Virus record (IMG/VR): IMGVR_UViG_3300037393_000027
Location: 1-53,682 of that record
DNA from: a virus
Lineage: Duplodnaviria > Caudoviricetes
Length of the DNA: 53,682 bases
Direction: 5' to 3' (one strand)
Positions 10,033 through 51,712 of the stretch are shown here, in pieces. Within the stretch, counting starts at the first letter, position 1. Each line of letters begins with the position of its first letter. The notes under the pieces were generated by a model. The model was not told the DNA's origin. It did not search any database and saw nothing but the letters and a program-made list of their open reading frames with translations. Made by a program: the position numbers and the translations under genes.

Positions 10033-10706
10033 CCCTGCGGCCCACCCATGGTCTTGCTGGTGACCGGCTTCTCGCGCGAAGAAGGAAGCGGGTCCGAGAT
10101 GTTGGACGGACGCGGGGTCTCGGCAAGCCATTCCGTGAAGAGCTGGCGATTCGGTTCGCCGAGATCCGGACGAGCGACCGCTGGCCATCCGAGGCGAAGG
10201 GCGCCCTCGATGAGGTGCTCATCGCAATCCTGTCCGGTCAACGGAACGTCAGTGCCGGTGAAGTCCGGATTGGCGGGCAGCTTGTAGTAGAACAGGTCAA
10301 CCGGATACGCCTTGTCCGGGATGTGACTGAAGTAGAGGGTGTTCTTGAAGCGAACATAGGTTTCTGGCTTACCGATCTCGTTCGTGAACTCAACCAGGCG
10401 CGAGGCAGCGTCACCGATGCCGACCCCGCCCGCAAGGAACTTGCCGGTAGCGGGGTCCTTCAGCCGAACCGCGATCAGGATGTAGCAGTCTGCCGGCAGG
10501 GCGAGAGTGTTCACGGTAGTCGACAGAGTCAGCGAGCTGTCGATGACATCCAGCTCGAAGTGGTGGTAGCACGTCGAGAGGTAGTGATAACTGGCCGTGA
10601 GCCAGTACTGGACGCGGGTCGTGAACCCGGTGTAGTTGATCCCGCCCAGACGGCGAATGATTTCAGTCTGGTTTTCGAGCCAGTTCCTGCGGGCTAGGGC
10701 GGCCAT
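10029..10706 (-). CDS. head-tail adaptor protein (paralog 1)
   Basis: 225 aa; LALPAD, GKPETY..F...LYF..IPDKAY.V...YY and EHLIEGAL motifs. Confidence 0.65.
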   Translation of the reverse strand: MAALARRNWLENQTEIIRRLGGINYTGFTTRVQYWLTASYHYLSTCYHHFELDVIDSSLTLSTTVNTLALPADCYILIAVRLKDPATGKFLAGGVGIGDAASRLVEFTNEIGKPETYVRFKNTLYFSHIPDKAYPVDLFYYKLPANPDFTGTDVPLTGQDCDEHLIEGALRLGWPAVARPDLGEPNRQLFTEWLAETPRPSNISDPLPSSREKPVTSKTMGGPQG

Positions 10707-30235: not shown

Positions 30236-30252
30236 TGGGCCTCGGTGACCGG

Positions 30253-30326
30253 AGGGCGAGGAGAGATTCGAACTCCCATCCATGAGTTTAGGAAACTCAC
30301 GTTCTTTCCGGTTGAACTACTCGCCC
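30253..30326 (-). tRNA. tRNA-Arg(CCU)
   Basis: GGGCGAG/CTCGCCC acceptor, GTTC/GAAC D-stem, TGAGT-TTCCTAA-ACTCA anticodon arm, GGGAG-TTCGAAT-CTCTC T arm; 3' end reads CCG, so CCA is not encoded. Confidence 0.9.
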
Positions 30327-30419: not shown

Positions 30420-30494
30420 TGGTCGGGATTGAGTGATTCGAACACCCGTGTTCGTGCTCCCAGGGCACGCGCCTCGCCTCTCGGCCAAATCCCG
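30420..30494 (-). tRNA. tRNA-Pro(UGG)
   Basis: CGGGATT/AATCCCG acceptor, A73, encoded CCA, CGTGC-CCTGGGA-GCACG anticodon arm, GGGTG-TTCGAAT-CACTC T arm. Confidence 0.88.
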
Positions 30495-39952: not shown

Positions 39953-40252
39953 ATGGCCATCAAGAAAGAGCTAACCGGATACAAGGTGGTCGTCTGGGTC
40001 GACAAGCCGTGGGTGTTGGCCGAGCGCGTTCCGGATCGCTGGCGCGAGAGCGCTCACGACCTAGCGGCAGCCGTTCGTCGCCACGTGGACGGTATCGACC
40101 ATATCGACGTCGAAGCCGATCTCGACTTGGTCTGCGAGTTCTGCGGGTCGGCCTGGGGCGAACGTGACGAGCTGTACAACGGCGGCTGCTGCGCTCGGGA
40201 TTGCGAGGAGGAGGACAAGAGGGCTGCTGAGATCGAGGCGGTGCGTCCATGA
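39953..40252 (+). CDS. hypothetical phage protein
   Basis: RRHVD...CEFCG...GGCC motifs. Confidence 0.55.
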   Translation: MAIKKELTGYKVVVWVDKPWVLAERVPDRWRESAHDLAAAVRRHVDGIDHIDVEADLDLVCEFCGSAWGERDELYNGGCCARDCEEEDKRAAEIEAVRP

Positions 40253-40524
40253 ACAACTGCCTCGACCACCTCGACTACACAGAATCCACCTGTCCGGACT
40301 GCGGGCACGCGGTCGATCGCTACGGGAACACGGAGGGCCAGTTCGACTACTGCTCGTTTCCGGACTGTGGCTGTAACGGGGCAAGGCTATGCATGGCCAA
40401 GGGTGCCGCTTCGGATCGCGCCGTCCGGCAGAACGTCGAGGACATGTGGCGCGGCAAGACAATCGAGCAGCGGCGCGCGGTGTTCGAACTCTACGGAGAT
40501 GTCCTCAAGGAGGGTAAGTCATGA
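40249..40524 (+). CDS. Cys-rich hypothetical protein
   Basis: CPDCG...YGNTE...CSFPDCGC.GARLC. Confidence 0.55.
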   Translation: MNNCLDHLDYTESTCPDCGHAVDRYGNTEGQFDYCSFPDCGCNGARLCMAKGAASDRAVRQNVEDMWRGKTIEQRRAVFELYGDVLKEGKS

Positions 40525-40763
40525 CCCACGACCGCCCCTCCCTCTCCGCCCTCTTCCGGCGCCTGCTTGGCGATCCGGAGTACCTGGACGAGTCCATCAT
40601 CTACGACGGACCCAACTCCATCGTCGAGATCGTATCGACCACGGCCTGCAAGCACGGTCGCCAGGACTGTCCGAACTGCGGGACGACCTCGCGTCGTGAC
40701 GTGACGCACAAGACCCGTGGTGGGCGCGGATCGGTTGGGAAGCTGCGGAAGAAGCCTCGCTAA
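40521..40763 (+). CDS. hypothetical protein
   Basis: CKHG..DC..CG; the stop TAA begins the promoter motif. Confidence 0.5.
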   Translation: MTHDRPSLSALFRRLLGDPEYLDESIIYDGPNSIVEIVSTTACKHGRQDCPNCGTTSRRDVTHKTRGGRGSVGKLRKKPR

Positions 40764-40796
40764 CCCCTTGACACAGACTGACCGCTGTGCTAACGT
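40761..40796 (+). promoter_or_regulatory. TAACCCCTTGACA-type promoter upstream of the peptide array
   Basis: TAACCCC-TTGACA-17 nt-TAACGT with extended -10 TG; shares CGCTGTGCTAA with the 33295 promoter. Confidence 0.75.
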
Positions 40797-40818
40797 AGTG
40801 ACATTGGAGGAGGACGAG

Positions 40819-41187
40819 ATGAGCGACAAGAGGTCAACGAGGGACGAGGCGCTGAAGGCTTACGAAGAGGCGTACGGTAGTTTTATCGGAAAAAGCCTGG
40901 ATTACGACCGCCTCCGCGCCCTCGACGCAGTCGCGGCACTCTTCGGCGGGTACGCGGAGCCGATCGTCGAGATGCCAGAAGTCGAGCCCACCCTGATTCA
41001 CGTTCGCGGCACGGACCTCACCCTTCAACAGGAGGCGGTCCTGTGCGCCCGCTCCAACGTCTGGCCGGAGATCATTGCCGCACTGGACGACACGATCGGT
41101 CGCCCGTATCCCGAGGTGCCGATCCGCGATGTACTACAGCGCATGAGATCCACCGAGTTCGGCGTAGGCCCTGACCTGAAGTCCTGA
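40819..41187 (+). CDS. hypothetical protein upstream of the peptide array
   Basis: MSDKRSTR..., GGAGGAGG RBS. Confidence 0.6.
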   Translation: MSDKRSTRDEALKAYEEAYGSFIGKSLDYDRLRALDAVAALFGGYAEPIVEMPEVEPTLIHVRGTDLTLQQEAVLCARSNVWPEIIAALDDTIGRPYPEVPIRDVLQRMRSTEFGVGPDLKS

Positions 41188-41261
41188 AGCAATCCGGGGA
41201 GCCGTCGCGGCAGGCCGGGCAATTCCCCTCGGCTTATCCGGGAAACCGGAGGAGTTACACC

Positions 41262-41423
41262 ATGGAGAAGAAGGCTAAGAAGTTGCGCCTTGGACTCGAA
41301 ACCCTGTCGCGTTTAGACGGGGTGAGCGGCGGGGAGGATCCCGTTATCAAGGCGTCGGGCTTCACCTGCGTGAGTAACTGTGACACAACCTGGTGGAGTA
41401 GCTACTGCCCGCCGAGGGCCTAA
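41262..41423 (+). CDS. RiPP (lanthipeptide-like) precursor peptide 1, 53 aa (not in ORF track)
   Basis: MEKKAKKLRLGLETLSRLDGVSGG-EDPVIKASGFTCVSNCDTTWWSSYCPPRA; GGAGGAG RBS. Confidence 0.75.
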   Translation: MEKKAKKLRLGLETLSRLDGVSGGEDPVIKASGFTCVSNCDTTWWSSYCPPRA

Positions 41424-41435
41424 GGAGGACTACCC

Positions 41436-41621
41436 ATGAGAAAGAACAAGTCACCCCGTCCCCGGCTCACCCTCAACCCCGAGACCCTGCGCCACCTGAC
41501 CGGCGGCAGAAGCACGCCGCAGGTACCGCCCCCGGACGTCACCGATAGTTGGTGGCAGTGTTATCCGACTGGCTCGGGCGGCACGTGCCCCACCGTCATC
41601 GGTACGTCCATCCCTCGCTGA
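41436..41621 (+). CDS. RiPP (lanthipeptide-like) precursor peptide 2, 61 aa
   Basis: MRKNKSPRPRLTLNPETLRHLTGG-RSTPQVPPPDVTDSWWQCYPTGSGGTCPTVIGTSIPR; TAAGGAGG RBS. Confidence 0.75.
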   Translation: MRKNKSPRPRLTLNPETLRHLTGGRSTPQVPPPDVTDSWWQCYPTGSGGTCPTVIGTSIPR

Positions 41622-41643
41622 TTCTGCGCCCGGACTGAACCGG

Positions 41644-41725
41644 AAGGAGTCGTCACGCTACGAAACGCAAGCTCAAGCCGAACCGTGAAACCCTCCGTCG
41701 CCTAGATCTCCGCTGTACGTACTAG
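41644..41725 (+). pseudogene. degenerate third precursor (leader only)
   Basis: AAGGAG RBS, no canonical start, frame TKRKLKPNRETLRRLDLRCTY*. Confidence 0.55.
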
Positions 41726-41735
41726 CTACACCCAG

Positions 41736-41763
41736 GGCGGCCGGCTGGCGACGGTCGGCCGCC
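41736..41763 (+). other. stable hairpin after the peptide array
   Basis: GGCGGCCGGCTG-GCGA-CGGTCGGCCGCC with GNRA loop; no U-tract. Confidence 0.6.
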
Positions 41764-41827
41764 TCACTATCCCAAGCCAGAGCGACCCCCGGCGCGTGTA
41801 GCGTCGGCCCGGAAGCCTGGCCGCATC

Positions 41828-41867
41828 GAGTGGCCGGAGATGTTCACGGCCGGCCACTCTCTTTTTC
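41828..41867 (+). terminator. putative intrinsic terminator
   Basis: GAGTGGCCGG/CCGGCCACTC stem followed by TCTTTTT. Confidence 0.55.
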
Positions 41868-41878
41868 AGGAGGAACGC

Positions 41879-49665: not shown

Positions 49666-50484
49666 CTAGTTCGAGAAGGGATCTGGTTTAGCGTCGAGGG
49701 CCATTTCGAGTTCAAGCTGGGCAATGACTCGGTCGTTCTCCTCTTCATCCTTGGCGTCCAGAAGTGAGAAGTTGTAGATATTCTTAAGGGTTCCTATAAC
49801 CACGCAGAAGGTATGGTTCTTTGCGATTTTACGGTCCGGCCAGTCATCGAACCGCCAGCCTTTGCAGGCCGCCGCCAGGAGGCGGTGCGCCTCTTCCGGG
49901 GTCTCTCCGTTTTTCTTCAGGGCGGTCCACTGGGCGTAGTAGAAGTCTTGCTCGTTCTTTTTCGGACCGTACTTTTCGGCCTCGGCCCCCATTAGGGAGG
50001 CGTGGTAGGCCCTCGATGCTTCCAAGTACTCCGGAGACGGCTTCCACTCAACGGGCTGTTTCTTCGTTCTTTTCTTTCTACTTACTTTGTCTCCGTCAGG
50101 TACTCCGCAATCGTACTCGCTACTGTCTTCGCAACCGTCCCACGGCTTCTGATAAACCTCATATTTTTCAACAAGATAAGTGGTACCGTCAACGCCGCTA
50201 CGAACCTCTCTTAGCCTGCCTTCGTTGGTGCACATGGAAAGCCACCTTGACACCCTGCCACTCGACCACTGCCAGCGAGCAGCTAGAAACCTTATGGACA
50301 GCAGCAGCTCCCCCCTGGCGAGGGGAACGGTCCTGGTTCCAACTCTCTTTTGGTGATCTGCATACGCAGCCATTTGTATGGTGTCAATCCAGGCTTCTGC
50401 TAGGGAATACTCCCTGGGCTTGTTCCAGTCTGGATCTTCTTCAAAAAACTTCCTGGATAAGGTTACCCAGCCATAGTTTTTCAT
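49666..50484 (-). CDS. phage replication initiator-like protein
   Basis: GWV.LSRK, AWID.I..A, L.RGE...S.R.LA.RW.WS...V.R.L winged-helix N-terminus. Confidence 0.7.
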   Translation of the reverse strand: MKNYGWVTLSRKFFEEDPDWNKPREYSLAEAWIDTIQMAAYADHQKRVGTRTVPLARGELLLSIRFLAARWQWSSGRVSRWLSMCTNEGRLREVRSGVDGTTYLVEKYEVYQKPWDGCEDSSEYDCGVPDGDKVSRKKRTKKQPVEWKPSPEYLEASRAYHASLMGAEAEKYGPKKNEQDFYYAQWTALKKNGETPEEAHRLLAAACKGWRFDDWPDRKIAKNHTFCVVIGTLKNIYNFSLLDAKDEEENDRVIAQLELEMALDAKPDPFSN

Positions 50485-50491
50485 TCTTGCT

Positions 50492-51712
50492 TCATTCCGT
50501 CAATCCATACGCAGCCCAAAACTCCTGCTTTCTAGTTTGTGAGCGCGTGCGCCCCCGGCCTAGTTCTCGCTTCAGCCCGGGCAGTTTCGCAGTAGACGCA
50601 ATGCCACCGCCAGCGCTTCCCGGTCCACGAGCTAAGATGACCGCCAAGCCGGCGGCCCTGAGATTTAGAGCGGCATTGTGATCGCGATCCAGCTCGATAC
50701 CGCACGCCGCGCAACGATAGACACGATCCTTCAACGAGAGATCACTCTTGGAGTTGCCGCACCCAGAGCACGTCTTGCTCGACGGGTAGAACCGATCAAC
50801 CGTCAGCAGCTCGCAACCGGCGGCGGGCGCCTTGTAGGTGACCTGTCGCCGAAACTCTGACCAGCCCGCATCGGAGATCGAGCGCGCCAGGCTCCTGTTT
50901 TTGAGCATATTTCCGACCGCAAGGTCTTCCAAGACGATCGCTTGGTTTTCGCGAACGAGCCGAGTCGAGAGCTTGTGGAGAAAATCGTTGCGTATATTCG
51001 CTACTCTGGCGTGAGTGCGGGCAACGCAAGCCTTCGCCTTAGCCTTTCGCTTCGAGCCGTCCTGGCGCCGTGCGACTCGCCTCTGCTCTCGGCGCAATTG
51101 GCCGAGAGCGGCCCTTAAAGGCTTGGGGGCGGCGATCGACTCGCCGGTCGAAAATACCGCGAAAGACGTGAGGCCTAGGTCTACTCCTACCACGCCGTCG
51201 CCTTGCGGGATCGGCCCAGCGTCCGGCATCTCGACGGAGATCGATAGGAACCACCGGCCGGCCGTTTTTGATACCGTTGCGGATAGGATCTTACCGTCTA
51301 GGCGGAGAGACTCGCGCATCCTGACCCAACCGATTTTAGGGAGTCGCGCGCGCTTGCCGTCGAGTACTAGTCGGTCGTTCGGGACATAGTATGAGTCGTG
51401 CCGGCCCTTCTTTTTGAAGCGTGGGTACCGAGCGCGTTTCTCGAAGAAGTTCTTGAACGCCACGCCGAGGTTAGCGAACGCCTGCTGATTCGCCCCCTTA
51501 GGAGAGTCATAGACCCACGGGAACTCCGCCCGTTTCAGGGCGTTGAACTGAGCCTTCAGGCCGGCGGCAGTCGGCTTCTCCCCGGCTGCGTATCGGCGCC
51601 CCCATTCCGCGAGTGCCCAATTCCAGGTGAACCGCGCTACGCCGCACGCCCGAGACAGGGAGATGCCTTGCTCCACTGTTGGGTCGAGAGCGATTTTATG
51701 CGCGCGGTTCAT
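50492..51712 (-). CDS. tnpB: RNA-guided endonuclease TnpB (IS200/IS605/IS607 family)
   Basis: N-terminal HTH, YPRFKKK, RuvC VGVDLG / IVLEDL / DRDHNAA, Zn finger CSGC..CAAC. Confidence 0.93.
   Translation of the reverse strand: MNRAHKIALDPTVEQGISLSRACGVARFTWNWALAEWGRRYAAGEKPTAAGLKAQFNALKRAEFPWVYDSPKGANQQAFANLGVAFKNFFEKRARYPRFKKKGRHDSYYVPNDRLVLDGKRARLPKIGWVRMRESLRLDGKILSATVSKTAGRWFLSISVEMPDAGPIPQGDGVVGVDLGLTSFAVFSTGESIAAPKPLRAALGQLRREQRRVARRQDGSKRKAKAKACVARTHARVANIRNDFLHKLSTRLVRENQAIVLEDLAVGNMLKNRSLARSISDAGWSEFRRQVTYKAPAAGCELLTVDRFYPSSKTCSGCGNSKSDLSLKDRVYRCAACGIELDRDHNAALNLRAAGLAVILARGPGSAGGGIASTAKLPGLKRELGRGRTRSQTRKQEFWAAYGLTE

What the first reader, a model, noticed from the sequence alone, without database searches (positions are those of the whole stretch)
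41188..41867. Phage-encoded array of RiPP (lanthipeptide-like) precursor peptides with no maturation enzyme
Seen: two tandem small ORFs, each with a strong RBS, share a basic leader (KKLRLGLETLSRL / RPRLTLNPETLRHL), then a Gly-Gly site (VSGG / LTGG), then divergent Cys/Ser/Thr-rich cores that both contain WW (CVSNCDTTWWSSYCP; TDSWWQCYPTGSGGTCPT). They follow a motif promoter (40761) and one 122 aa ORF and precede a hairpin and a terminator. No LanB/C/M/KC, radical SAM enzyme or transporter is visible in the 53 kb. Established: KKLxLxxETL-type leaders mark class I-type lanthipeptide precursors, and GG sites are cut by C39 peptidase ABC exporters. Inference: the phage supplies cores and borrows host maturation and export machinery, making its own modified peptides (signals or toxins) or decoys that jam a host RiPP pathway. 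It also hints at a host rich in such leaders (e.g. Acidobacteriota or Myxococcota).
Basis: partly seen in the sequence, partly recalled or inferred. Interest (0 to 1): 0.92.

Follow-up and report, generated by a model that had tools for sequence, protein, structure and literature searches.

The report
Phage-borne lanthipeptide-type precursor genes, no enzymes
A soil phage carries two intact and one decayed gene for small leader-plus-core peptides of a family whose bacterial members sometimes sit beside lanthipeptide-making enzymes, yet the phage has no such enzyme, so it probably relies on its host to mature them.

Summary
Two tandem ORFs (pep1 41262-41423, 53 aa; pep2 41436-41621, 61 aa) have strong RBSs, phage-like GC3, a shared L-x-L-x-x-ETL-x-x-L...GG leader and Cys/Ser/Thr/WW cores. 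They lie between a phage promoter and a terminator. A third, decayed leader copy (41639-41725) was missed.

Curated leader HMMs do not match the phage peptides directly. A profile built only from 22 metagenomic relatives ranks pep1 (E 5e-8), the remnant (0.005) and pep2 (0.26) as the top 3 of 1371 six-frame segments.

The family has about 60 peptides. All 4 members that carry an organism name are Acidobacteriota. 32 of 42 alignment rows hit NCBIfam NF038153 (class I lanthipeptide leader) weakly. In 2 of 80 metagenome loci the peptide gene directly abuts LanB or LanC. Most bacterial copies are orphans among housekeeping genes, so "no enzyme nearby" is normal for the family.

The window has no LanB, LanC, LanM, radical SAM enzyme or C39 exporter. 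A second, unrelated and complete phage (64.7 kb) also carries one family member plus a leader-only ORF and no Lan enzymes.

Best reading: phage-borne LanA-type precursors matured in trans by host enzymes. Their function (weapon, signal or decoy) is untested. This is a new variant of known kinds.

The parts
40761..40796 (+). Phage sigma-70-like promoter: TAACCCC-TTGACA (-35 at 40768-40773), 17-nt spacer, TGcTAACGT (-10 at 40791-40796)
   Evidence: Sequence. It is one of six TAACCCCTTGACA sites in the window, three of which share a (G)CTGCTAAnnT -10 region. The strict consensus scan did not list it.
40819..41187 (+). orf122, first gene of the unit, function unknown
   Evidence: SD GGAGGAGG lies upstream and GC3 is 0.77. 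No Pfam or NCBIfam hit over cut-off. No relative in IMG/VR. The single-sequence AF2 model was unusable, pLDDT 44.5.
41262..41423 (+). pep1, a 53-aa LanA-type precursor. The leader is residues 1-24 ending in VSGG. The core is EDPVIKASGFTCVSNCDTTWWSSYCPPRA (3 Cys, 7 Ser/Thr).
   Evidence: ORF and SD. GC3 0.76. One homologue, P0002, is 72% identical with an identical 20-aa core stretch. A profile of 22 metagenomic relatives scores it at E 5.4e-8, 29 bits, over model positions 1-52. Its core aligns to the family motif TCxTNCDxT..CP.
41436..41621 (+). pep2, a 61-aa divergent paralogue. The leader ends in LTGG. The core has 2 Cys, 10 Ser/Thr and WW.
   Evidence: ORF and SD overlapping the pep1 stop. 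GC3 0.79. No relative by word search. It is the third-best of 1371 window segments against the family profile, but only at E 0.26. TIGR04149 scores E 0.2, below cut-off.
41639..41725 (+). pep3, a remnant of a third precursor. It is a leader-only frame (...KRKLKPNRETLRRLDLRCTY*) with no canonical start. There is an ACG at 41660, 10 nt after GGAAGGAG.
   Evidence: Read from the sequence. It is the second-best window segment against the family profile, E 0.0049, and the best against the leader-only profile, E 0.011.
41735..41764 (+). 13-bp G+C-rich hairpin without a T-run
   Evidence: dG -28.2 kcal/mol, z -3.68, 0 of 200 shuffles as stable.
41828..41866 (+). Intrinsic-terminator-like element: 10-bp stem, 12-nt loop, then TCTTTTT. 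The next gene's SD and ATG (41879) follow directly.
   Evidence: Fold of 41795-41870; sequence. The fold z-score is only -1.44 for the 76-nt stretch, and the consensus scan did not find it.

Best explanation
The stretch 40761-41866 is a self-contained, moron-like transcription unit of a soil phage. It runs phage promoter, orf122, pep1, pep2, a decayed third copy, hairpin and terminator.

pep1 and pep2 are precursor peptides of the L-x-L-x-(K/R)-x5-L...GG leader family of class I lanthipeptide (LanA) type. The family is abundant in soil bacteria, probably Acidobacteriota.

The phage has no maturation genes. In the infected or lysogenised cell the peptides would be bound through their leader by the host's LanB dehydratase and LanC cyclase, which would dehydrate Ser/Thr and form thioether rings with the 3 (pep1) or 2 (pep2) Cys. 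They would then be cut after Gly-Gly by a host double-glycine (C39-type) peptidase or exporter. The result would be phage-specified lanthipeptides made on host machinery.

Shown: the genes, their signals, family membership of pep1, the link of the family to LanB/LanC in two loci, the absence of enzymes in this phage, and the same situation in a second, complete phage.

Inferred: expression, trans-maturation, cleavage and export, and any biological role.
For: Coding and signals:
- Strong SDs, GC3 of 0.76 and 0.79, and a promoter of a six-member phage motif family.
- A terminator-like fold downstream.

Conservation:
- P0002 is 72% identical to pep1. 20 of 20 residues of the core stretch KASGFTCVSNCDTTWWSSYC are identical, while 9 of 24 leader residues differ.

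Family:
- An exhaustive HMMER search found 3 further small peptides at E 3e-6 to 5e-4.
- A profile word search gave 67 proteins at E<=10 of 139 candidates. 26 were at E<1e-3, six of them the query rows. All are 49-86 aa, with the same leader and Cys/Ser/Thr-rich cores.
- A profile of 22 metagenomic members only ranks pep1, pep3 and pep2 as hits 1-3 of 1371 window segments.

Link to class I lanthipeptides:
- 32 of 42 rows of alignment A4 hit NF038153 at E<=1, best 1.2e-5.
- 10 of 10 chosen members hit it at E<=1, and 2 of 10 exceed the 22-bit cut-off.
- In L129 the peptide gene is followed by Lant_dehydr_C (7e-43) and Lant_dehydr_N (4e-46). In L145 it is followed by LANC_like (1e-33).
- hhalign of the family leader against 4 Bacteroidota LanAs that sit beside LanC/LanB gave E 6.7e-5, probability 64%.
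- The motif is described in print (PMC7268733).

Cores:
- Ser+Thr >= Cys in 67 of 67 peptides.
- The Cys count is odd in 40 of 65 non-window members, which fits thioethers better than disulfide pairs.

No enzymes in the phage.

Second phage:
- G397 is 64,714 bp with direct terminal repeats and CheckV 100%.
- It carries a family member (E 3e-13) and no LANC_like, Lant_dehydr_N or local LanB/C/M/PCAT/rSAM hit.
- It shares no blastn or tblastx similarity with the window.
Against: - pep1 and pep2 match no curated leader HMM. NF038153 gives nothing at E<=10, and TIGR04149 gives 11.6 bits against a cut-off of 25.
- pep2's link to the family is weak on its own (E 0.26).
- The residue that is Arg in >=90% of the family (position 12) is Leu in pep1 and Pro in pep2. 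This could impair enzyme recognition.
- Only 2 of 80 relatives' loci show a Lan enzyme, and both are short contigs. 0 of 12 loci with >=3 kb on both sides do.
- 96 neighbours within 5 kb in 20 loci are housekeeping genes, and no family recurs in more than 2 of them. Only 25 of 107 Pfam families were displayed.
- The host is unknown, so the presence of LanB/LanC in it is untested.
- The window is only 85% complete.
- The third copy is decayed, which shows that selection on the array is not uniform.
- LANC_like and Lant_dehydr_N had no positive control among the tool's 14 control genomes. My own Bacteroidota controls were found.
Confidence: 0.45

Rival explanations
1. The peptides are export-only double-glycine-leader peptides. 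The leader merely addresses them to a host peptidase-containing ABC exporter. They act unmodified, disulfide-bonded or modified by non-Lan enzymes such as radical SAM enzymes, as bacteriocin-like toxins or signals.
For: - The GG site and basic/hydrophobic leader are generic for C39-exporter substrates (PMC7268733 passages).
- Most family members are unlinked to Lan enzymes.
- One locus (L095) has the peptide beside HlyD plus a MacB/FtsX-type exporter.
- 6 of 42 alignment rows weakly hit TIGR04149, an rSAM-modified RiPP leader, and 5 hit TIGR04065, a bacteriocin precursor.
- One radical SAM gene lies 2.6 kb from a family member, in 1 of 80 loci.
Against: - The Cys count is odd in 40 of 65 members, and pep1 has 3 Cys. 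Ser+Thr >= Cys in 67 of 67.
- Two direct adjacencies to the otherwise rare LanB/LanC genes. LanB was found in only 8 of 151 Bacteroidota genomes.
- One rSAM hit in 442 kb is about what chance gives, since the six genomes searched have 8-13 rSAM genes each.
- NF038153 is by far the commonest HMM hit, 32 of 42 rows.
Confidence: 0.2
2. The peptides are decoys or counter-defence factors. Together with leader-only mini-ORFs, they mimic the host's LanA substrates and occupy the leader-binding site of LanB/LanC or the exporter. This would block production of a host lanthipeptide that harms the phage.
For: - Class I lanthipeptides that act inside the cell against phage transcription exist in Actinobacteria ('lanthiphages'; bioRxiv 10.1101/2024.06.26.600839, passages read; review PMC12360287).
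- The phage leaders depart from the family at the near-invariant Arg12.
- Both phages also carry a leader-only frame. In the window it is pep3, 41639-41725. In G397 it is MSRKLKLTRETIRLLAVQALD*, which has its own ATG.
- The unit sits among small early-type genes on the + strand.
Against: - The pep1 core, not its leader, is the conserved part when compared with P0002. That argues that the product of the core matters.
- pep3 has no canonical start codon.
- The preprint describes anti-phage lanthipeptides as so far restricted to Actinobacteria.
- No defence-island signal around the bacterial relatives: only single PADLOC hits among 96 neighbours.
- Nothing tested here bears on binding.
Confidence: 0.12
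3. The unit is passenger DNA. The precursor genes were picked up from a host chromosome and are decaying, with no role in the phage life cycle.
For: - The third copy is a pseudogene.
- pep2 is very divergent and has no relatives.
- Bacterial copies are scattered and sometimes lie near IS200-type transposases, 2 of 96 neighbours.
- Carriage by phages is rare. Narrow-pattern scans of 2.9 million IMG/VR contigs confirmed 0 and then 1 locus, and GenBank phages gave none.
Against: - pep1 and pep2 are intact, with strong SDs, phage-like GC3 and a phage-type promoter.
- The pep1 core is identical over 20 residues in a homologue that has diverged by 28% overall.
- An unrelated complete phage carries an intact member too.
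Confidence: 0.13
4. These are chance ORFs in a G+C-rich intergenic region and are not genes.
For: They are short. High-GC DNA has many spurious ORFs. There are no expression data: only one DNA run holds the stretch.
Against: The GC3 frame signal, the SDs at correct spacing, homologues in other samples and profile hits that pick exactly these three adjacent frames out of 1371.
Confidence: 0.03

Closest known systems
Class I lanthipeptide precursors with the LxLxKx5L...GG leader (Bacteroidetes type; NCBIfam NF038153 lant_leader_L1a; Walker et al. 2020, PMC7268733)
   Same: - The spacing of hydrophobic leader positions is the same (L8, L10, L18 in pep1).
- The N-terminus is basic, the leader ends in Gly-Gly and the core is rich in Cys, Ser and Thr.
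- The leaders are related at profile level (hhalign E 6.7e-5).
- In Bacteroidota genomes I saw peptide-LanC-LanB(-C39 ABC-HlyD) directly.
   Different: - The phage peptides do not reach the curated HMM.
- The K/R at the fifth motif position is L in pep1 and P in pep2.
- The family profile was found in at most 1 of 151 Bacteroidota genomes, as a weak non-leader hit. All 4 members that carry an organism name are Acidobacteriota.
- No LanB, LanC or C39 gene is in the phage.
Prochlorosins (ProcA precursors of marine cyanobacteria)
   Same: Many precursor genes with a conserved leader and hypervariable cores lie far from the single synthetase and are matured in trans (as stated in PMC7268733). Most bacterial members of the present family are likewise unlinked.
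   Different: Prochlorosins have Nif11-type leaders and a class II LanM enzyme. They are chromosomal, not phage-borne. A search for 'cyanophage' plus 'prochlorosin' found no report of phage copies.
Phage- or prophage-borne bacteriocin and RiPP gene clusters (e.g. sublancin on SPbeta; Dragos et al. 2021 Curr Biol; 'lanthiphage' clusters more frequent on prophages)
   Same: A phage carries genes for a ribosomal peptide natural product as accessory cargo.
   Different: Those cases carry the whole cluster, including maturation and export genes. Here only precursors are carried. Basis: Dragos et al. was seen only as a reference entry, and the sunT/sunI primers as SPbeta markers, in PMC12361552; its content is recalled. 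The prophage statement comes from the preprint passages.
Phage morons
   Same: A small accessory unit with its own promoter and terminator lies between phage genes. In G397 the peptide gene sits between tail genes.
   Different: The promoter is of the phage's own repeated type, so the unit is integrated into the phage programme rather than autonomously expressed. 'Moron' is a recalled concept, not tested further.

Membership tests
Class I lanthipeptide precursor, LxLx(K/R)x5L-GG leader type (NF038153) | Match to the curated leader HMM NF038153 at or above 22 bits | tested here: not met
   pep1, pep2 and pep3 give no hit at E<=10. Among relatives, 32 of 42 alignment rows hit at E<=1. Of 10 chosen members, 10 hit at E<=1 and 2 exceed the cut-off.
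Class I lanthipeptide precursor, LxLx(K/R)x5L-GG leader type (NF038153) | Leader motif L-x-L-x-K-x5-L followed by a Gly-Gly end (Walker et al. 2020) | tested here: inconclusive
   The spacing L-x-L-x-x-x5-L and the GG are present in pep1 and pep2. The basic residue is replaced by L in pep1 and P in pep2, is R in the remnant, and is R in >=90% of the family.
Class I lanthipeptide precursor, LxLx(K/R)x5L-GG leader type (NF038153) | Sequence-profile membership in a family that includes precursors adjacent to LanB/LanC | tested here: met
   pep1 scores E 5.4e-8 against a profile of 22 metagenomic members. pep3 scores 0.0049 and pep2 only 0.26. The L129 and L145 members abut LanB and LanC.
Class I lanthipeptide precursor, LxLx(K/R)x5L-GG leader type (NF038153) | Core with Cys and at least as many Ser/Thr to form (methyl)lanthionines | tested here: met
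   pep1 has 3 Cys and 7 Ser/Thr. pep2 has 2 Cys and 10 Ser/Thr. Ser+Thr >= Cys in 67 of 67 family cores.
Class I lanthipeptide precursor, LxLx(K/R)x5L-GG leader type (NF038153) | Genomic linkage to LanB and LanC | tested here: not met
   None in the window or in the complete phage G397. Among relatives, 2 of 80 loci.
Class I lanthipeptide precursor, LxLx(K/R)x5L-GG leader type (NF038153) | Dehydration and thioether formation in the mature peptide | not testable with these tools
   Needs co-expression and mass spectrometry.
TIGR04149 rSAM-modified RiPP (GG_sam_targ_CFB) | HMM score at or above 25 bits, and a radical SAM/SPASM maturase nearby | tested here: not met
   pep2 scores 11.6 bits, E 0.2, and pep1 gives nothing. 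There is no Radical_SAM in the window. 1 of 80 relatives' loci has an rSAM gene within 3 kb.
Double-glycine-leader substrates of C39 peptidase ABC exporters | Gly-Gly (or GA/GS) at -2/-1 after a leader of about 15-30 aa, and a cognate C39 exporter | tested here: inconclusive
   GG lies at residues 23-24 of both peptides. No Peptidase_C39 or PCAT is in the window. The host is unknown, so the exporter could not be sought.
Phage moron-like accessory unit | Own promoter and terminator flanking non-essential cargo | tested here: met
   Promoter motif at 40761-40796. Terminator-like stem plus T-run at 41828-41866. Function by consensus only, not shown.

The most novel reading that the evidence does not exclude
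Soil phages repeatedly capture enzyme-less LanA genes, and keep leader-only mini-ORFs, as substrate mimics. These would commandeer or jam the host's class I lanthipeptide machinery. They would either make phage-designed lanthipeptides on host enzymes or shut down an intracellular anti-phage lanthipeptide defence. If so, this would be a RiPP-level counterpart of anti-defence proteins and would extend lanthipeptide-based phage defence beyond Actinobacteria.
Probability: 0.12. Interest if true: 0.9.

Novelty: new variant of a known kind. Interest (0 to 1): 0.64.

Why it matters
Phage-borne natural-product genes are known as whole clusters. Precursor genes unlinked from their enzymes are known from bacterial chromosomes. 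A phage that carries only the precursors combines the two.

It implies that a virus can reprogramme the product spectrum of a host's RiPP pathway, or block it, with about 160 bp of DNA per peptide. Two unrelated phages, one of them complete, show the same arrangement, so this is not a one-off assembly accident.

The work also exposes a large, mostly unannotated family of LanA-type peptides in soil bacteria, probably Acidobacteriota. Most of these genes stand alone, and cluster-based genome mining misses them.

The claim can be tested directly by co-expression with LanB/LanC of the same family and mass spectrometry.

I found no report of phage-encoded orphan lanthipeptide precursors in six searches of the held library. 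That library lacks most subscription journals, and supplements were closed.

Tried and rejected
Searches for relatives and context:
- Curated HMMs on the phage peptides gave nothing over cut-off. PF28317 is not in the Pfam copy.
- ESM Atlas gave only sub-threshold leads (0.83-0.87) to 'class I lanthipeptide leader' clusters. I used these as leads only.
- Scans for relatives of pep1, orf122 and the downstream gene in IMG/VR found none. The first metagenome scan with pep1 found none.
Whether it is a phage, and its dN/dS, remain open.
- A near-identical phage fragment (L002, terL 99%) does not cover the locus.
- terL has no match in GenBank phages.

Host identification failed:
- The IS605-type transposase matches many phyla at about 50% identity.
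- No Acidobacteriota genome handle could be obtained.
- The family profile was not found in samples of 151, 121 and 121 genomes of three other phyla. These searches had no positive-control genome.

Other attempts:
- Sequencing runs: one soil DNA run, possibly the source of the record, and no RNA holder listed.
- The orf122 structure was unusable, pLDDT 44.5. No fold search was done.
- The PADLOC tally of neighbours showed no defence-island enrichment.
- The genes downstream of the three-peptide array in L122 are HemB, HemL and a glycine-oxidase-like protein, not maturases.

Caveat: the Pfam tally of neighbours shows only 25 of 107 families. For that reason I added my own LanB, LanC, LanM, PCAT and rSAM profiles with controls. 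LanKC/LanL, YcaO and other maturase types were not searched.
Full report
**What is there**

The window is an IMG/VR virus record of 53,682 bp, linear, with a CheckV completeness estimate of 85%. It has a large terminase, portal, tail fibre, primase/helicase and an IS605-type transposase. It also carries two tRNA genes and has about 62% G+C.

On the + strand lies a compact unit:
- a promoter-like site, TAACCCC-TTGACA-17 nt-TGcTAACGT, at 40761-40796;
- a 122-aa ORF at 40819-41187;
- pep1 at 41262-41423, 53 aa;
- pep2 at 41436-41621, 61 aa;
- a stable hairpin at 41735-41764;
- a 10-bp stem followed by TCTTTTT at 41828-41866.

Both peptide genes have strong Shine-Dalgarno sequences, and that of pep2 overlaps the stop codon of pep1. 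Third-position G+C is 0.76 and 0.79 in the proposed frames, as in the large phage genes (0.75-0.83). For pep1 it is 0.47-0.55 in the other two + frames.

The promoter belongs to a repeated phage motif. TAACCCCTTGACA occurs at six intergenic places, and three of them share a (G)CTGCTAAnnT -10 region.

The frame 41639-41725 reads ...KRKLKPNRETLRRLDLRCTY*. It is preceded by GGAAGGAG but has no ATG, GTG or TTG, and it has no Gly-Gly or core. It is a decayed or leader-only copy.

**Do the peptides belong to a known kind?**

Directly, no. NCBIfam and Pfam give nothing over cut-off. The best hit is TIGR04149 for pep2 at E 0.2, 11.6 bits against a cut-off of 25. NF038153 (lant_leader_L1a, 'class I lanthipeptide') does not ring in the window. 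The ESM Atlas gave only sub-threshold leads to 'class I lanthipeptide leader' clusters.

Indirectly, yes.
- pep1 has one close relative, P0002, at 72% identity. The core stretch KASGFTCVSNCDTTWWSSYC is identical, while the leader has 9 changes in 24 residues.
- An exhaustive HMMER search with pep1, P0002 and pep2 found three more small peptides with the same leader (E 3e-6 to 5e-4) and two spurious repeat proteins.
- A profile of the six then gave 67 proteins at E<=10 of 139 candidates. 26 were at E<1e-3, six of them the query rows. All are 49-86 aa. The consensus leader is MKKSLKKLxLSRETLRxLE...GG and the cores are rich in Cys, Ser and Thr. The commonest core motif is TCxTNCDCTLSCPELC, to which the pep1 core TCVSNCDTTWWSSYCP aligns.

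To avoid circularity I built a profile from 22 metagenomic members only and scored all 1371 six-frame segments of the window without filters. The three best were pep1 (E 5.4e-8, 29 bits, leader and core), the remnant (0.0049) and pep2 (0.26). The next hit was at E 1.0. So pep1 is a clear member. pep2 is a divergent paralogue, supported mainly by its position, its shared leader spacing and the WW..Y..P core motif.

**Link of the family to lanthipeptide enzymes**

- 32 of the 42 rows of the family alignment hit NF038153 at E<=1, best 1.2e-5. Six hit TIGR04149 and five hit TIGR04065.
- Of ten members scanned one by one, all ten hit NF038153 at E<=1 and two exceed its 22-bit cut-off.
- Walker et al. 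2020 state that class I LanAs of Bacteroidetes have an LxLxKx5L leader motif instead of FxLD. Many of these leaders end in Gly-Gly, and a C39 protease is often in the cluster (PMC7268733, passages read). pep1 (L8, L10, L18) and pep2 have this spacing.
- I verified the arrangement in Bacteroidota genomes. LanB was found in 8 of 151 genomes. In L184 and L185 a small peptide with such a leader lies next to LanC and LanB, and in L184 also next to a C39 ABC exporter and HlyD.
- hhalign of the family leader against four such peptides gave E 6.7e-5 at 64% probability over 28 columns.

**Genomic context in bacteria**

A metagenome scan with the word KLxLSRETLR gave 312 stretches, of which 138 were confirmed and 80 kept. 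These loci total 442,077 bp, have a median G+C of 0.66, and 16 of 80 hold 2-3 peptide genes.

I built my own profiles of LanB and LanC from Bacteroidota loci, of LanM from Ktedonobacter loci, and used one PCAT sequence. All were run on six-frame translations.
- The LanB and LanC profiles found the held-out Bacteroidota controls. The LanM profile was checked only against its own four seed loci. The LanC profile barely detects LanM C-terminal domains.
- In the 80 loci they hit only L129 and L145.
- Pfam confirmed both. In L129 the peptide is followed by Lant_dehydr_C (7e-43) and then Lant_dehydr_N (4e-46), a split LanB. In L145 the peptide is followed by LANC_like (1e-33).
- These enzymes are rare, so two direct adjacencies are unlikely to be chance.

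The other loci show no maturase.
- Eight large neighbours are an SMC-like ATPase, a WD40 kinase, a CheB/CheR histidine kinase, S-layer and other surface proteins, and the like.
- Among 96 neighbours within 5 kb in 20 loci, no Pfam family occurs in more than two. The visible ones are housekeeping genes such as ALAD, HSP90, RNase E/G, LigA, LpxC and FtsZ. Only 25 of 107 families were displayed.
- The genes after the three-peptide array of L122 are HemB, HemL and a glycine-oxidase-like protein.
- 0 of 12 loci with at least 3 kb on both sides have a Lan gene.
- A radical SAM profile (23 training domains; 6 of 6 held-out controls found) hit one locus, L093, 2.6 kb from the peptide. That is about the chance expectation.

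So the family behaves like prochlorosins. A few copies lie in a cluster and most are orphans. 'No enzyme nearby' is the family's normal state, not a peculiarity of the phage.

**Cores**

In 65 non-window members the predicted core has a median of 5 Cys and 8 Ser/Thr. Cys, Ser and Thr together make up 41% of the core. Ser+Thr >= Cys in 67 of 67 peptides including the window's. The Cys count is odd in 40 of 65. This fits thioether chemistry better than disulfide pairing.

**Taxonomy and host**

All four family members that carry an organism name are Acidobacteriota: three from Thermoanaerobaculia MAGs and one 'Acidobacteria bacterium'.

The family profile was not found in samples of 151 Bacteroidota genomes (one weak non-leader hit) or of 121 and 121 genomes of two other phyla. 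These searches had no positive-control genome.

The host of the phage itself could not be identified. The transposase is promiscuous, there are no cultured relatives, and no Acidobacteriota genome could be reached with the tools left.

**The phage has no maturase, and a second phage repeats the pattern**

LANC_like, Lant_dehydr_N, Radical_SAM and Peptidase_C39 are absent from the window at E<=1. So are hits of my own profiles. The record is only 85% complete, however.

A scan of IMG/VR with the word [KR][KR]LxL[HS]RETL found 25 stretches, of which one was confirmed. An earlier, narrower scan confirmed none of 25. GenBank phages gave nothing.

The confirmed locus lies in G397, a 64,714-bp record with direct terminal repeats and CheckV 100%.
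- Its peptide, MRRLTLSRETLRNLTESSLRRVVGG followed by a Cys-rich core, scores E 3e-13.
- The gene lies about 1.9 kb downstream of a 2010-aa tape-measure-like gene, with four small ORFs between them. A 943-aa Laminin_G_3 protein lies about 2.5 kb further downstream, after two ORFs of 226 and 502 aa.
- G397 has no LANC_like or Lant_dehydr_N and no hit of my profiles.
- It shares no blastn or tblastx similarity with the window.
- It also holds a leader-only ORF, MSRKLKLTRETIRLLAVQALD*, 2.4 kb from the intact gene.

Two unrelated phages therefore carry enzyme-less members of this family, and each has a leader-only frame as well.

**How it most likely works**

Shown:
- a phage transcription unit with two intact precursor-type genes;
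- family membership of pep1;
- a family-level link to LanB/LanC;
- absence of enzymes in the phage.

Inferred: the unit is transcribed by host RNA polymerase from a phage promoter. The leaders dock to the host's LanB/LanC. Ser and Thr are dehydrated and rings close on the Cys residues. A host double-glycine peptidase or exporter removes the leader.

I rate this at 0.45. The rivals are:
- export-only or otherwise modified GG-leader peptides, 0.2;
- decoys that jam a host lanthipeptide pathway, 0.12. Anti-phage class I lanthipeptides exist in Actinobacteria (preprint 10.1101/2024.06.26.600839, passages read);
- decaying passenger DNA, 0.13;
- chance ORFs, 0.03.

Three points weigh against trans-maturation. 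The near-invariant Arg of the leader is Leu in pep1 and Pro in pep2. pep2 is weakly linked to the family. The host's enzyme content is unknown. Against pure decoy function, the core rather than the leader is what is conserved between pep1 and P0002.

**Novelty**

Whole RiPP or bacteriocin clusters on phages are known. The preprint says its clusters are more frequent on prophages. Dragos et al. 2021 I saw only as a reference entry, and its content is recalled. Orphan LanA genes matured in trans are known from prochlorosins.

I found no report of a phage carrying only such precursors in six searches of the held library. That library lacks most subscription journals, and supplements were closed.

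I file the finding as a new variant of known kinds. It is moderately surprising and can be tested directly.

Noticed in passing
window 29926(-), 30532(-), 31572(-), 33301(+), 40767(+), 47484(-): A repeated promoter-like motif, TAACCCCTTGACA, occurs at six intergenic sites. Three of them (33301, 40767, 47484) continue with (G)CTGCTAAnnT at -10 spacing. This is likely the phage's own early or middle promoter class, read by the host sigma-70 holoenzyme.
   Followed up: partly
L186 10550-10687 (= G397 10191-10328, - strand): The unrelated complete phage G397 has a leader-only ORF, MSRKLKLTRETIRLLAVQALD*. It has its own ATG, lies 2.4 kb from its intact family member and ends 10 nt before a Laminin_G_3 tail-type gene. 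It parallels the leader-only remnant in the window. This may be chance decay or a functional free leader.
   Followed up: partly
window 50492-51712 (-), with 49666-50484 (-): An IS200/IS605-type transposase (phrog_506, E 9e-121) lies inside the phage. Its relatives are about 45-56% identical in many phyla (Pseudomonadota, Chloroflexota/Ktedonobacter, Desulfobacterota, Verrucomicrobiota and others), so it gives no clue to the host.
   Followed up: partly
window 30251-30326 (-) and 30420-30494 (-): The phage carries tRNA-Arg(CCT) and tRNA-Pro(TGG). Each has a TAACCCCTTGACA-type motif close by.
   Followed up: no
L002 (IMG/VR record G001, 27,874 bp): A second record of essentially the same phage (terL 99% identical) covers only about window 9.1-37.0 kb, if collinear. 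It therefore neither confirms nor varies the peptide locus.
   Followed up: yes
L140 3146-3750 and 3823-7815: A tandem array of three family peptides in a metagenome contig is followed directly by a 1330-aa SMC_N/AAA_23/AAA_21 ATPase. This may be a defence-type or chromosome-maintenance ATPase. Overall the PADLOC tally of neighbours showed only single hits.
   Followed up: partly
L095 390-3616 (-) and 3786-3974 (+): One family peptide lies head-to-head with an HlyD-type adaptor and a MacB/FtsX-type ABC permease. MacB_PCD and FtsX also occurred in 2 of 96 neighbours. This is a possible non-C39 export route for these peptides.
   Followed up: partly
window 39953-40763 (+): Three small upstream ORFs of 99, 91 and 80 aa are rich in Cys pairs (CxxC-like), suggestive of zinc-ribbon proteins. 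They have no family hit. They belong to a long run of small + strand genes at about 31.6-44.7 kb.
   Followed up: no
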